From NCBI RefSeq assembly GCF_003334255.1, contig NZ_QOWU01000081.1: a stretch of 12,747 nucleotides of DNA; one strand, written 5' to 3'. A program made the position numbers and the translations under genes. Shown piece after piece: positions 7,427 to 10,665 of the stretch. The DNA is from Escherichia coli. GTDB taxonomy: Bacteria; Pseudomonadota; Gammaproteobacteria; Enterobacterales; Enterobacteriaceae. Under the pieces are notes generated by a model, which did no database searches, was not told the origin of the DNA, and worked only from the letters and a program-made list of their open reading frames with translations. Each line of letters begins with the position of its first letter. Positions within the stretch are counted from its first letter, which is position 1.

Positions 7427-7852
7427 TTAGTGCATCACCACAGCATTCCCTGCCGGGCCGCCGCGATTCATCTGGTCATACAAAACAACCGCTGACGCAA
7501 CAAAATCATCGACATCCTTCACCAGCCGATCCCTCCGTTCGACGATCTCACGGTAATATTCAGAACTGTGGCTGCGCATACGGGCCACCAGCAAAGGCGG
7601 CATCGCCTTTTCGATCGCCGGTAACAGAGCCTGCATTTTTTCAACAGCATCAGGGGTGTCTTTATCCAGCCAACGGAAAATTTTCTGGGTATTACGGGCC
7701 AGGGCTTCCGGATGGCTGTCGTCGTACAGTTCCGGGAACGTCATCCCCAGTTCGAAATAAGTCCGGGCTATTTCAGCTGCAGGAACTTTCTCACCATCAG
7801 GATATGCCCAGGCATTCATCGCCATGCGGATGTGCTCATGTTTGATTTTCAT
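7427..7852 (-). CDS. YdaT-like protein (Rac prophage ydaT family, proposed CII-like regulator), 141 aa
   Basis: Position immediately downstream of and overlapping the Cro-like gene; length and N-terminus (MKIKHEHI...) are consistent with YdaT as I recall it. ATG 7850-7852. Confidence 0.6.
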   Translation of the reverse strand: MKIKHEHIRMAMNAWAYPDGEKVPAAEIARTYFELGMTFPELYDDSHPEALARNTQKIFRWLDKDTPDAVEKMQALLPAIEKAMPPLLVARMRSHSSEYYREIVERRDRLVKDVDDFVASAVVLYDQMNRGGPAGNAVVMH

Positions 7853-8180: not shown

Positions 8181-8255
8181 ACAATAATATTAGGCTTAGC
8201 CTAATATTATTGTCAATAGGCTATGCCTAATACATCGAGAGTAGGGATTGCCTAA
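8181..8255. promoter_or_regulatory. OR-like operator/promoter region: three operator sites of type TTAGGC-N3-GCCTAA, with a leftward PR-like promoter and a candidate rightward repressor promoter
   Basis: Perfect 33-bp palindrome 8181-8213 (ACAATAATATTAGGCT T AGCCTAATATTATTGT); second site 8216-8230; third, weaker site 8241-8255. Minus-strand -35 TTGACA at 8211-8216 with a -10-like TAATAT at about 8187-8192. Confidence 0.6.
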
Positions 8256-8283
8256 CGCGATGCGCATAGGAGACTATTAAGCA

Positions 8284-8760
8284 ATGCTTAGTGGTAAAGA
8301 CTTAGGCCGAGCGATAGAGCAGGCCATTAACAAAAAAATTGCATCAGGAGCCGTCAAATCAAAGGCGGAAATCGCACGTCATTTCAAAGTCCAACCACCA
8401 TCAATCCATGACTGGATTAAGAAAGGTTCGATAAGTAAAGACAAACTTCCAGAACTATGGCGTTTCTTTTCTGATGTGGTTGGTCCAGAGCATTGGGGGC
8501 TTAACGAATACCCCATACCAACCCCATCCACTTCAGATACAAAAAGTGAACTTTTAGACATAAACAGCCTTTATCAAGCCGCCTCTGATGAAAAAAGAGC
8601 AATTGTGACTTTCCTCTTATCTGGAAATGCTACGGAGCCTGGTTGGGTTGATCATGACGTTCGCGCCTACATTGCCGCAATGGAAATGAAGGTAGCTAAC
8701 TATCTGAAAAATCAAGAATCAAAACGGAAAAGCCAGAACATCACCAAGACAGGAACTTAA
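8284..8760 (+). CDS. Prophage repressor, 158 aa (RacR-like by position and length); no LexA-type S24 autocleavage domain apparent
   Basis: N-terminal HTH-like region (KAEIARHFKVQPPSIHDWIKKG); divergent from the Cro-like gene; flanked on both sides by operator triplets. AGGAG lies 11 nt upstream of the ATG. Confidence 0.75.
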   Translation: MLSGKDLGRAIEQAINKKIASGAVKSKAEIARHFKVQPPSIHDWIKKGSISKDKLPELWRFFSDVVGPEHWGLNEYPIPTPSTSDTKSELLDINSLYQAASDEKRAIVTFLLSGNATEPGWVDHDVRAYIAAMEMKVANYLKNQESKRKSQNITKTGT

Positions 8761-8835
8761 ACTTATATGGTCCGACGGGAAATTCCTAGTTCCCGTTAGT
8801 TAACTCCTACTACCTCTCCCACAAACCATCACCTA

Positions 8836-8897
8836 TTAGGTTGCACCTAAATCATTAGGCATAGCCTATTGACAAACAATTAGGCATTACCTATAGT
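8836..8897 (+). promoter_or_regulatory. OL/PL-like region: three operator sites and a strong rightward sigma70 promoter for the early-left (dicB-type) operon
   Basis: Sites TTAGGT-TGC-ACCTAA (8836-8850), TTAGGC-ATA-GCCTAT (8855-8869, the exact reverse complement of the OR site at 8216-8230) and TTAGGC-ATT-ACCTAT (8880-8894). -35 TTGACA 8869-8874, 17-bp spacer, -10 TATAGT 8892-8897. Confidence 0.6.
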
Positions 8898-9075
8898 TTT
8901 CCCATACCAACCCATCCCATCCCACACAATACAGGGCAATACCTAGAGTTACCCGGCAGTGGTCAGGGATTAAGTAGCCAGCCCGAGGCGTAAGAACATG
9001 ACGGCAGGGTTCAACTTTAACTATGCAGCAGGTTTTTGTTCCGCTCCCCCGGCGTTAAGGGGAAATGAGGTCAGC

Positions 9076-9302: not shown

Positions 9303-9342
9303 TGCTCTTTAACAATCTGGGTATTCCTAACCACAAAGGAAT
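9303..9342 (+). promoter_or_regulatory. rrn-type boxA (TGCTCTTTAACAA) followed by a stem-loop: candidate nut-like or Nus-factor-dependent antitermination site in the early-left transcript
   Basis: Exact 13-nt match to the rrn boxA consensus as I recall it, at 9303-9315; hairpin ATTCC-(10 nt)-GGAAT at 9323-9342, 7 nt downstream; about 400 nt downstream of the PL-like promoter. No N-like protein identified. Confidence 0.4.
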
Positions 9343-9773
9343 CGCATCAATTTGGATTTTGCAGACAGTTTCTCTTGTTGTTCTACGGAGATTCCTATTT
9401 TGATCTGGGTTTTTAAGATTGCGATATCTTTAAGCGACGACCAAATATTATCATCTGTTTTTTCCAGGAGCTTTAACTGCATTTTCAATTCCGAATCGGA
9501 ATATTTTTCTGCATCATCATAAAACTGCAGATATTCTGCGGATTTTCTCATTGCGTTACCTGACTTTTGTCCGAATCCGTAAATCGTTTGAACGGTTGCT
9601 ATCACAACAATGAGAACTCCAGAAACTTCAGGAATAAATCCACCAATGACAGATGAACCGAGGATAATACTCACCACTGAGAAAAGTTTATCGAGACGAC
9701 CAGTCGCTACAGAGAATAGTTGTTCAAGAAAATAACCATATAAAACCCTGTCAAGAATATCATCCCGGTCCAT
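9327..9773 (-). CDS. Two-transmembrane-helix membrane protein, 148 aa, putative superinfection-exclusion protein (SieB-like by position and topology)
   Basis: ATG 9771-9773 preceded by AGGTGA. Hydrophobic segments LFSVVSIILGSSVIGGFIP and VSGVLIVVIATVQTIYGF followed by a helical charged domain. Transcribed opposite to the early-left operon, as sieB is in Rac. The gene looks AT-rich relative to its neighbours. Confidence 0.5.
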   Translation of the reverse strand: MDRDDILDRVLYGYFLEQLFSVATGRLDKLFSVVSIILGSSVIGGFIPEVSGVLIVVIATVQTIYGFGQKSGNAMRKSAEYLQFYDDAEKYSDSELKMQLKLLEKTDDNIWSSLKDIAILKTQIKIGISVEQQEKLSAKSKLMRFLCG

Positions 9774-10476: not shown

Positions 10477-10665
10477 ATGGAAACGTTATTACCAAACGTT
10501 AATACGTCTGAAGGTTGTTTTGATATTGGTGTTCTGCTCAGTAACCGGGAGTTTACGGAAGATGCCATTAAGATGAGAAAATATGAACCTTATCTTCTCA
10601 ATGATAATTCCATACTTTCCAGAATTGCCCTTCTTGAACTTGGTATTATCGGAGAACAGCAGTGA
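10477..10665 (+). CDS. dicB: DicB-like cell-division inhibitor (MinC-activating), 62 aa
   Basis: N-terminus METLLPNVNTSEGCFDIGVLLSNREFTEDAI matches my recollection of Qin DicB (MKTLLPNVNTSEGCFEIGV...FTEDAI). GAGGA ribosome-binding site at 7-nt spacing. Follows dicF. Confidence 0.85.
   Translation: METLLPNVNTSEGCFDIGVLLSNREFTEDAIKMRKYEPYLLNDNSILSRIALLELGIIGEQQ

What the first reader, a model, noticed from the sequence alone, without database searches (positions are those of the whole stretch)
8181..8897. Mirror-image operator triplets flanking a repressor that lacks a LexA-type cleavage domain
The half-site TTAGGC-N3-GCCTAA recurs three times on each side of the repressor gene, including a perfect 33-bp palindrome at 8181-8213. 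The site at 8855-8869 is the exact reverse complement of the site at 8216-8230. Promoters are interleaved with the sites on both sides (PR-like and PL-like). The 158-aa repressor shows no S24 Ser-Lys peptidase domain, so induction probably needs an antirepressor or a separate protease; the COG2856 peptidase at 1323-2426 is one candidate.
Basis: partly seen in the sequence, partly recalled or inferred. Interest (0 to 1): 0.4.

Follow-up and report, generated by a model that had tools for sequence, protein, structure and literature searches.

The report
RacR prophage repressor and its operators
This is the already-studied lysogeny switch of a Rac-like E. coli prophage (repressor RacR flanked by its binding sites at two outward-facing early promoters); the only part I could not find described is the second, downstream site cluster, and the suggested protease is instead part of an unrelated anti-phage toxin-antitoxin system.

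Summary
Six matches to TTAGGC-N3-GCCTAA (2 mismatches or fewer) lie in two clusters flanking the 158-aa gene. None occur elsewhere in the ~60-kb prophage (0 of 200 shuffles reach six).

The gene is racR, 91% identical to K-12 RacR. It lies divergent to ydaS (Cro-like) and ydaT (CII-like).

The upstream cluster is already published as the RacR operator set: EMSA and ChIP in 2017, DNaseI footprint and the same consensus in 2022. RacR's lack of a self-cleaving domain is also published.

I did not find the downstream cluster described in the papers I could search. It has the same architecture as the ydaS promoter: one operator abuts the -35 TTGACA and one overlaps the -10. That architecture recurs downstream of RacR-type repressors in Klebsiella, Mixta, Morganella, Proteus, Erwinia, Burkholderia, Zoogloea and Lysobacter. 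Published RNA-seq shows the genes downstream of it are derepressed when RacR falls.

The same N-terminal domain and operators are joined to a Peptidase_S24 C-terminal domain in some relatives, so the induction module is interchangeable.

The proposed protease (1323-2429) is RmrA of the RosmerTA defence system. It also sits in prophages with S24 repressors, so it is a poor candidate. The induction trigger remains unknown.

Verdict: ordinary, essentially already known.

The parts
8284..8760 (+). racR, 158-aa prophage repressor: N-terminal cI/XRE-like HTH, flexible linker, three-helix C-terminal domain, no S24 domain
   Evidence: 100% DNA match annotated racR; 91% aa identity to K-12 RacR; Pfam shows no S24; AlphaFold model has helices 4-71 and 86-153, with the linker below pLDDT 50
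8190..8204 (.). OR1, perfect operator TTAGGCTTAGCCTAA; overlaps the spacer and the first 3 nt of the -10 of the ydaS promoter
   Evidence: corresponds to O1 of the K-12 footprint (PMC9638921)
8216..8230 (.). OR2, ATAGGCTATGCCTAA; shares one T with the -35 TTGACA of the ydaS promoter; exact inverted copy of OL2
   Evidence: (I2)
8241..8255 (.). OR3, GTAGGGATTGCCTAA; positional and sequence counterpart of the single -35-abutting operator in other genera
8277..8291 (.). Autoregulatory operator TTAAGCAATGCTTAG, with the racR ATG in its 3-nt spacer region; a lone half-site TTAGGC follows at 8302-8307
   Evidence: conserved at this position in every relative examined; published as O3 (PMC9638921)
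8187..8216 (-). PR-like promoter PydaST: -35 TTGACA (8216-8211), 18-nt spacer, -10 TAATAT (8192-8187)
   Evidence: identical hexamers and spacing were mapped by primer extension and -10 mutagenesis in K-12 (PMC9638921, PMC11879457)
8181..8213 (.). 33-bp perfect palindrome centred on OR1; the extension beyond the operator core is lineage-specific
   Evidence: I3; not conserved in K-12 or L010; lies upstream of the predicted ydaS start site, so the terminator-like hit is not a terminator of ydaS
8836..8850 (.). OL3, weak site TTAGGTTGCACCTAA, 19 bp start-to-start from OL2; seen only in the E. coli-type loci
8855..8869 (.). OL2, TTAGGCATAGCCTAT; shares its last T with the -35 of the PL-like promoter
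   Evidence: conserved position in 13 loci from at least 9 genera
8880..8894 (.). OL1, TTAGGCATTACCTAT; overlaps the spacer and the first 3 nt of the -10 of the PL-like promoter
8869..8897 (+). PL-like early-left promoter: TTGACA, 17 nt, TATAGT (11 of 12); predicted, not mapped
   Evidence: same arrangement in K-12 and other genera; the downstream genes ydaF/ydaG/kilR/xis/int are derepressed when RacR is depleted (PMC6765115, PMC11014345)
7836..8159 (-). ydaS, Cro-like HTH protein, first gene of the PR-like operon
7427..7852 (-). ydaT, CII-like regulator
   Evidence: PMC11879457
9076..9228 (+). ydaF-like DUF1391 gene, first ORF downstream of the PL-like promoter

Best explanation
The region is the immunity switch of a Rac-like lambdoid prophage.

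RacR dimers bind 15-bp operators of the form (T/A)TAGGC-N3-GCCTA(T/A). The two early promoters face away from racR, and at each one operator overlaps the -10 (OR1, OL1) and a second abuts the -35 (OR2, OL2), about 25 bp centre to centre. Occupancy therefore excludes RNA polymerase. This silences the rightward operon (ydaS/ydaT, replication genes) and the leftward operon (ydaF, dicB, recE-like exonuclease, xis, int).

Further sites between OR2 and the racR start codon, including one with the ATG in its spacer, give negative autoregulation.

Shown by others for the K-12 allele: binding and footprint at the upstream cluster, the ydaS promoter, octamer formation, and derepression of both arms when RacR falls.

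Inferred here: the downstream cluster is the true OL/PL, by architecture and conservation.

RacR has no self-cleavage domain. Derepression therefore needs something else. In my order of likelihood: an antirepressor (possibly supplied in trans by another prophage), spontaneous YdaS-driven switching or dilution, and only remotely cleavage by the RosmerTA peptidase.
For: - Identity: 100% match to loci annotated racR / HTH (ydaS) / YdaT; 91% aa identity to K-12 RacR.
- Site statistics: six sites against an expected 0.40, 0 of 200 shuffles; none in the other 45 kb of the prophage.
- Promoters sit on the clusters.
- K-12 Rac has the same downstream arrangement.
- Conservation: the OL2|TTGACA|N|OL1|-10 unit occurs downstream of RacR-type repressors in Klebsiella phage KpF5, Mixta, Morganella, Proteus, Erwinia, Burkholderia, Zoogloea, Lysobacter and CP135917. 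It lies 61 to 1945 bp past the stop codon, staying with the next promoter even when cargo genes and a terminator are inserted.
- Pairs of sites spaced 24-26 bp were never seen in 300 shuffles of any of 10 loci.
- Literature: EMSA and ChIP-qPCR (PMC5700373); DNaseI footprint, consensus and PydaST mapping (PMC9638921); RacR octamer, CI-like N-terminal domain, unrelated C-terminal domain, xis/int up about 100-fold on RacR depletion (PMC11014345); ydaF/ydaG about 40-fold and kilR above 70-fold (PMC6765115).
Against: - No binding or start-site data for the downstream cluster were found. The PL promoter is a consensus match only.
- The third downstream site is weak and not conserved outside E. coli.
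- No inducer was identified. There is no intergenic LexA box in the whole prophage, and the only antirepressor-like gene is a 26-codon remnant of rem.
- The reference copy has a frameshifted portal gene and a lysozyme gene with an internal stop, so this prophage may never complete induction.
Confidence: 0.85

Rival explanations
1. The HTH-Peptidase_M78 protein (1323-2429) is the dedicated inducer of this prophage. Like ImmA on ImmR, it cleaves RacR after a damage signal.
For: The protein has HTH_3 plus Peptidase_M78 domains. RacR lacks S24. The M78 part resembles CapP (E 1.6e-14), a protease family known from outside knowledge to cleave an HTH repressor after DNA damage.
Against: - It matches RmrA over its full length (E 6e-105), and its overlapping upstream partner matches RmrT (E 5e-25). 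That is the RosmerTA defence toxin-antitoxin, in which the Zn-peptidase protein is the antitoxin (bioRxiv 10.1101/2022.05.11.491447).
- It is 6 kb from racR, not adjacent as immA is to immR.
- It is found in 237 E. coli genomes against 1086 for the racR module, and K-12 Rac lacks it.
- The same pair sits in prophages with LexA-family/S24 repressors and with a 153-aa HTH protein annotated only as helix-turn-helix.
Confidence: 0.04
2. RacR is inactivated by a small antirepressor made under LexA control, as for the Gifsy repressors or Rem on DicA. The antirepressor is encoded elsewhere in the genome (another prophage) or in a form I did not recognise.
For: Lemire et al. group RacR and DicA with the short non-cleavable Gifsy repressors and show trans-acting antirepressors (PMC3121763). 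Rem derepresses DicA (PMC10448788). A rem remnant lies at 1091-1168, in the same hokD-to-DUF968 interval that holds rem in Qin.
Against: No intergenic LexA box in the ~60-kb prophage. The rem copy keeps only 26 codons. Rem is shown for DicA, not RacR. No antirepressor for RacR is reported in the papers I read.
Confidence: 0.3
3. The downstream cluster does not control a promoter. It is an auxiliary anchor for a RacR-mediated DNA loop, or a non-functional copy produced by duplication of the upstream operator.
For: A 22-nt perfect inverted copy is shared between the two sides. RacR is an octamer in solution (PMC11014345).
Against: In every genus the two downstream sites bracket a TTGACA with a 16-18-nt spacer to a TA-rich -10, placed after the terminator of the repressor operon and ahead of the early-left genes. 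Genes downstream rise 40- to 100-fold when RacR falls. Looping and promoter occlusion are not mutually exclusive.
Confidence: 0.05
4. The 22-nt perfect inverted repeats flanking racR are the ends of a small mobile cassette carrying the repressor gene.
For: Perfect inverted repeats 8210-8231 / 8854-8875 enclose a single gene.
Against: - There is no transposase between them.
- The repeat is fully accounted for by operator plus -35.
- In K-12 the two arms differ in the operator spacer.
- In other genera the distance between them ranges from about 0.6 to 2.5 kb, with other genes inside.
Confidence: 0.01

Closest known systems
[quoted passage not shown]
   Same: Same gene order and orientation. RacR is 91% identical. 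Same operator consensus and positions, same PydaST hexamers and spacing, and the same downstream OL2/-35/OL1/-10 unit.
   Different: The module is 86.6% identical at the DNA level. OR1 here sits in a 33-bp perfect palindrome and OL3 is closer to consensus. The prophage is integrated next to ompW, is near full length, and carries other cargo such as RosmerTA, QueH and dicB.
Phage lambda CI / OR-OL switch
   Same: A repressor gene lies between two multi-site operators that overlap divergent early promoters. Adjacent sites are about 25 bp centre to centre, against 23-24 bp in lambda (that figure is from my own knowledge). Negative autoregulation uses the site nearest the repressor gene. The repressor forms octamers (PMC11014345). 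Cro- and CII-like partners are present.
   Different: No detectable sequence relation outside the HTH fold. The C-terminal domain is a three-helix domain, not S24, so there is no RecA-stimulated self-cleavage. The OR-OL distance is about 0.65 kb instead of 2.3 kb. racR has several promoters, including a leaderless one (PMC9638921).
Gifsy-1/-2/-3 repressors (GfoR, GtgR, GfhR) and DicA of Qin: short non-cleavable lambdoid repressors induced by antirepressors
   Same: Repressors of about 135-160 aa without an S24 domain in lambdoid prophages. Lemire et al. name RacR explicitly as a member of this group (PMC3121763).
   Different: No cognate antirepressor or LexA-controlled locus was found in this prophage. 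The rem-like gene is truncated.
ImmR/ImmA (ICEBs1, phi105) and CapH/CapP repressor-protease pairs
   Same: An HTH repressor without self-cleavage, with an M78/COG2856 metallopeptidase encoded in the same element.
   Different: The peptidase gene is not next to the repressor gene. It carries its own HTH, is paired with a toxin gene (RmrT), and is distributed independently of racR.

Membership tests
RacR-type prophage repressor / Rac immunity region | Close sequence identity to K-12 RacR (NP_415874) | tested here: met
   91% aa identity over 158 aa; PGAP names identical copies racR
RacR-type prophage repressor / Rac immunity region | Divergent ydaS (Cro-like) and ydaT (CII-like) operon next to the repressor gene | tested here: met
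   Annotation of the identical locus; PHROG and Pfam matches
RacR-type prophage repressor / Rac immunity region | Operators (T/A)TAGGC-n3-GCCTA(T/A) in the racR-ydaS intergenic region, one with the racR ATG in its spacer | tested here: met
   consensus from PMC9638921
RacR-type prophage repressor / Rac immunity region | Direct binding of the protein to these sites | not testable with these tools
   Published for the K-12 allele only (EMSA, ChIP-qPCR, footprint). No data for the downstream cluster.
Self-cleaving LexA/CI (Peptidase_S24) repressors | C-terminal S24 domain with a Ser-Lys dyad and an Ala-Gly cleavage site | tested here: not met
   No S24 hit in Pfam, while the relative L009 gives S24 at 3e-13. 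The predicted C-terminal domain is three helices with no strands. There is no GxSM motif in the sequence. No S24 structure appears among the fold matches.
Lambda-like OR/OL operator architecture | Multiple repressor sites overlapping the -10 and -35 of two early promoters on either side of the repressor gene | tested here: met
   conserved in other genera. The PL promoter is predicted, not mapped.
Lambda-like OR/OL operator architecture | Cooperative binding and OL-OR looping by a repressor octamer | not testable with these tools
   An octamer in solution is published (PMC11014345). Looping has not been examined.
ImmR/ImmA-type repressor plus COG2856 protease induction module | Protease gene adjacent to, and co-inherited with, the repressor gene | tested here: not met
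   The two are 6 kb apart. The protease is in 237 genomes against 1086 for racR. The protease pair is also found with S24-type repressors.
ImmR/ImmA-type repressor plus COG2856 protease induction module | Site-specific cleavage of the repressor by the protease | not testable with these tools
   Needs biochemistry.
RosmerTA (RmrT/RmrA) defence toxin-antitoxin (for ORFs 1323-3057) | HTH plus Zn-peptidase antitoxin matching RmrA profiles, with an adjacent RmrT gene | tested here: met
   RmrA E 6e-105 over positions 2-342 of the 370-position profile. RmrT E 4.6e-25. The genes overlap by 23 nt.
RosmerTA (RmrT/RmrA) defence toxin-antitoxin (for ORFs 1323-3057) | Toxicity of RmrT neutralised by RmrA, and protection against phage | not testable with these tools
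   Reported for the type system (bioRxiv 10.1101/2022.05.11.491447).
Gifsy/DicA-type antirepressor-controlled repressors | A LexA-controlled or otherwise regulated antirepressor gene in the prophage | tested here: inconclusive
   No intergenic LexA box in about 60 kb. Only a 26-codon rem remnant is present. A trans-acting or unrecognised antirepressor cannot be excluded.

The most novel reading that the evidence does not exclude
The downstream cluster is a genuine, so far undescribed OL. The published RacR octamer is then not four dimers lined up on the upstream sites. Instead it would be a lambda-style bridge between OR1-OR2 and OL1-OL2, enclosing racR in a loop of about 0.65 kb.

In addition, this N-terminal-domain/operator module would be an ancient cassette shared across Gamma- and Betaproteobacteria, whose induction module (S24 self-cleavage or a non-cleaving helical domain) has been swapped repeatedly while immunity specificity stayed fixed.
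Probability: 0.35. Interest if true: 0.35.

Novelty: already known. Interest (0 to 1): 0.18.

Why it matters
RacR is one of the few essential transcription factors of E. coli K-12, because it silences toxic prophage genes. About one in five complete E. coli genomes carries this module (1086 of 5426).

Locating the early-left operator/promoter would give a direct explanation for the published derepression of kilR, xis and int when RacR falls. It would also offer a simple test of a lambda-like loop.

Natural chimeras with the same DNA-binding domain and operators but an S24 domain could be used to ask what a non-cleavable repressor gains for a prophage. None of this changes the picture of how such switches work.

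Tried and rejected
- **LexA boxes.** CTGT-N8-ACAG gave one exact hit inside the rmrA coding sequence (1864-1879) and one outside the prophage. This is no more than chance.
- **Antirepressor candidates.** The 90-aa ORF at 660-932 showed no match to Rem in a tblastn of Rem against the window. The only Rem similarity is a 26-codon remnant at 1091-1168.
- **Intrinsic terminator after racR.** The hairpin at 8774-8797 has no U-tract, and the fold has a z-score of only -1.6.
- **Terminator-like hit on the 33-bp palindrome**. Rejected because it lies upstream of the predicted ydaS start site.
- **Structural neighbours of the RacR C-terminal domain.** There is no PDB match with E below 0.001. All weak hits are XRE/cI-type HTH domains. 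A profile search of PDB sequences found nothing.
- **PHROGs and PADLOC** gave no match for RacR itself.
- **Older Rac literature.** Conter et al. 1996 on kil is not held in the library. I therefore cannot exclude that the downstream operators were noted there.
- **Pseudomonas phage D14H.** Only the ATG-overlapping site matches at 2 mismatches or fewer, so operator conservation at that distance is unclear.

Full report
**1. What is in the sequence**

The motif TTAGGC-N3-GCCTAA, allowing 2 mismatches, occurs six times in the 12.7-kb window. All six hits fall in two clusters. The first is 8190-8204, 8216-8230 and 8241-8255. The second is 8836-8850, 8855-8869 and 8880-8894. Dinucleotide-preserving shuffles give 0.40 on average, and none of 200 reaches six.

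The remaining 45 kb of the same prophage, fetched from an identical genome, has no such site. The 33-bp palindrome at 8181-8213 is perfect. The claimed reverse-complement relation holds and extends to 22 nt (8210-8231 / 8854-8875), because it also covers a TTGACA hexamer.

At 3 mismatches two more elements appear. One is a site with the ATG of the 158-aa gene in its spacer region (8277-8291). The other is a half-site at 8302-8307.

**2. What it is**

The segment 7800-9300 is 100% identical to many E. coli chromosomes. There it is annotated racR, an HTH protein (ydaS), a YdaT-family protein and a DUF1391 protein. The protein is 91% identical to K-12 RacR.

The window is the early region of a lambdoid prophage integrated beside ompW. 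On the minus strand lie ydaS, ydaT, O-like and DnaC-like replication genes, nin-region cargo and DUF968. On the plus strand, after racR, lie ydaF-like, dicB, a DUF1482 gene and a recE-like exonuclease. In the identical genome this arm continues into xis and int beyond the end of the window.

The 781-bp module OR-racR-OL is present in 1086 of 5426 complete E. coli genomes.

**3. What is already known**

- Krishnamurthi et al. 2017 (PMC5700373) described three palindromic repeats in the racR-ydaS intergenic region. They showed RacR binding by EMSA and ChIP-qPCR.
- The 2022 NAR paper (PMC9638921) footprinted RacR on that region. It derived the consensus (T/A)TAGGC-n3-GCCTA(T/A). It placed O1 on the ydaS promoter and O3 over the racR ATG. 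It also mapped PydaST as TTGACA / TAATAT.
- The 2023 NAR paper (PMC11014345) showed that RacR is an octamer with a CI-like N-terminal domain and an unrelated C-terminal domain. It also showed that xisR and intR rise about 100-fold when RacR falls.
- RNA-seq in PMC6765115 showed ydaF and ydaG up about 40-fold, and kilR, ydaC and ralA up more than 70-fold.
- Lemire et al. 2011 (PMC3121763) listed RacR with the short non-cleavable Gifsy repressors, as a candidate for antirepressor control.

The upstream cluster, the repressor's identity and its lack of a cleavage domain are therefore all published.

**4. The downstream cluster**

None of the papers I could search mentions sites or a promoter downstream of racR. 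The older kil paper is not held.

The scan places the best promoter-like site of the region exactly there: TTGACA-17-TATAGT at 8869-8897, matching 11 of 12 positions. Its layout mirrors PydaST. OL2 shares its last T with the -35. OL1 covers the spacer and the first three bases of the -10. On the other side OR2 and OR1 do the same. K-12 Rac has the same unit.

I then fetched relatives: two phage records, 12 loci from a scan of one genome per species, and one locus through a protein hit. The unit OL2|TGACA|~5 nt|OL1|TAT recurs downstream of RacR-type repressors in these sources:

- Klebsiella phage KpF5
- Mixta
- Morganella
- Proteus
- Erwinia
- Burkholderia
- Zoogloea
- Lysobacter
- the chromosome record CP135917 (organism not shown)

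Its distance from the stop codon ranges from 61 to 1945 bp. In KpF5 a DUF450 gene and a strong intrinsic terminator lie between the repressor gene and the unit, much as rexAB lies between cI and OL in lambda. The unit therefore belongs to the next promoter, not to the 3' end of racR.

Pairs of sites 24-26 bp apart never arose in 300 shuffles of any of ten loci. Together with the published derepression of the downstream genes, I take this as the early-left operator/promoter. My confidence is about 0.85.

**5.

- The 'triplet' on the left side is really four sites plus a half-site.
- On the right side it is two strong sites plus one weak site, at 19-bp spacing and seen only in the E. coli-type loci.
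- In other genera a single operator (ATAGGAATTGCCTAA) abuts the -35 of the cro-side promoter. In E. coli its counterpart is 8241-8255, which has no -35 beside it.
- The site that now carries the -35 (8210-8231) is a perfect inverted copy of OL2 plus the -35. This looks like copying or conversion between the two promoter-operator units, which is my inference.
- The extension of OR1 into a 33-bp palindrome is not conserved in K-12 or in a 99%-identical allele. I give it no separate function.

**6. The repressor**

Pfam finds no S24 domain. The AlphaFold model has mean pLDDT 78.7. It shows a five-helix N-terminal domain, a disordered linker (residues 80-87 below pLDDT 50) and three C-terminal helices, with no strands. 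Foldseek against the PDB returns only weak XRE/cI-type HTH matches.

The same N-terminal domain is fused to Peptidase_S24 in several relatives, as follows.

| Relative | N-terminal identity to RacR | Length | S24 evidence |
|---|---|---|---|
| Pseudomonas phage D14H | 52.6% over residues 1-75 | 283 aa | Pfam S24, 3e-13 |
| P0101 | 86% | 235 aa | precomputed PF00717 |
| P0102 (Pectobacterium) | 71% | 235 aa | precomputed PF00717 |
| Zoogloea | 44% | 240 aa | GxSM motif only (my reading) |
| Azoarcus | 56% | 270 aa | GxSM motif only (my reading) |
| Lysobacter | 53% | 222 aa | GxSM motif only (my reading) |

The Zoogloea, Azoarcus and Lysobacter repressors were not profiled. The P0101, Zoogloea and Lysobacter loci keep the same operators on both sides, whereas the Azoarcus locus showed only the upstream sites in the sequence captured. 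The DNA-binding/operator module is thus conserved while the induction module is interchangeable.

**7. The proposed protease**

ORF 1323-2429 has HTH_3 and Peptidase_M78 domains. It also matches PADLOC RmrA over its whole length (E 6e-105). The overlapping upstream ORF 2407-3057 matches RmrT (E 4.6e-25). RosmerTA is a defence toxin-antitoxin whose antitoxin carries a Zn-peptidase.

The pair is found in 237 E. coli genomes. K-12 Rac lacks it. It also sits in prophages whose repressor is a LexA-family protein, or a 153-aa HTH protein annotated only as helix-turn-helix. It is independent cargo, not a partner of RacR. Cross-cleavage cannot be excluded without an experiment, and I rate it at about 0.04.

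**8. Induction**

I found no intergenic LexA box in about 60 kb. The hokD-to-DUF968 interval holds rem in Qin, and Rem is the DicA antirepressor (PMC10448788). Here that interval contains only the first 26 codons of a rem homologue.

The reference prophage also has a frameshifted portal gene and a lysozyme gene with an internal stop. The trigger for RacR inactivation therefore stays open. A trans-acting antirepressor, or YdaS-driven spontaneous switching, are the most plausible routes.

**9. Verdict**

But this is the known RacR switch, and the protease suggestion is not supported. The small additions are these:

- the apparently undescribed OL/PL unit and its deep conservation
- the natural S24 chimeras that share the same operators
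- the possibility that the published octamer reflects OR-OL bridging

Noticed in passing
window 1323-3057 (-): A RosmerTA anti-phage toxin-antitoxin pair. rmrT is 2407-3057 and rmrA (HTH plus M78 peptidase) is 1323-2429, overlapping by 23 nt. It is carried as cargo between hokD and DUF968. The same pair occurs in prophages with quite different repressors.
   Followed up: yes
window 1091-1168 (-), with upstream DNA to 1318: Remnant of rem, the Qin antirepressor of DicA. The first 26 codons are 73% identical to Rem, and the DNA at 1098-1318 is 90% identical to the rem 5' end and its upstream region. The rest of the gene is missing.
   Followed up: partly
window 1864-1879: An exact CTGT-N8-ACAG LexA-box-like sequence (CTGTTATTGTGAACAG) inside the rmrA coding sequence. 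It is the only one inside the ~60-kb prophage. The count is compatible with chance.
   Followed up: partly
window 8898-8960 (+): The predicted PL leader is C-rich and G-poor (24 C to 8 G). It contains CCCATACCAACCC, a 13-mer repeated exactly inside racR at 8512-8524. This is rut-like, and Rho-dependent silencing of the Rac kil region is published (PMC4150792).
   Followed up: partly
window 8210-8255, compared with L007 and L012-L016: E. coli Rac-type loci have one more upstream operator than other genera. The extra -35-bearing unit (8210-8231) is a perfect inverted copy of OL2 plus the -35 (8854-8875). This suggests copying or conversion between the two promoter-operator units.
   Followed up: partly
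L022 4001-4708; L018, L020, L021, L009; proteins P0101, P0102, P0114: Natural chimeras in which the RacR-type N-terminal domain (up to 86% identical) is fused to a Peptidase_S24 C-terminal domain. L022, L018 and L021 keep the same operator motif upstream and downstream.
   Followed up: yes
window 3616-4281 (-), 3223-3378 (-), 10477-10665 (+), 9327-9773 (-): Other prophage cargo: an epoxyqueuosine reductase QueH homologue, hokD, a dicB homologue in the early-left operon, and an unannotated 148-aa gene on the opposite strand (phrog_6315). The last sits where K-12 Rac has sieB.
   Followed up: no
L006 23871-26455 and 33949-34482 (same prophage, outside the window): In the identical reference genome the portal gene is frameshifted and the lysozyme gene has an internal stop. 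The prophage is therefore probably defective.
   Followed up: no
L007 3649-4853 (Klebsiella phage KpF5): A DUF450 gene and a strong intrinsic terminator lie between the RacR homologue and its OL/PL unit. This is the position rexAB occupies in lambda.
   Followed up: partly
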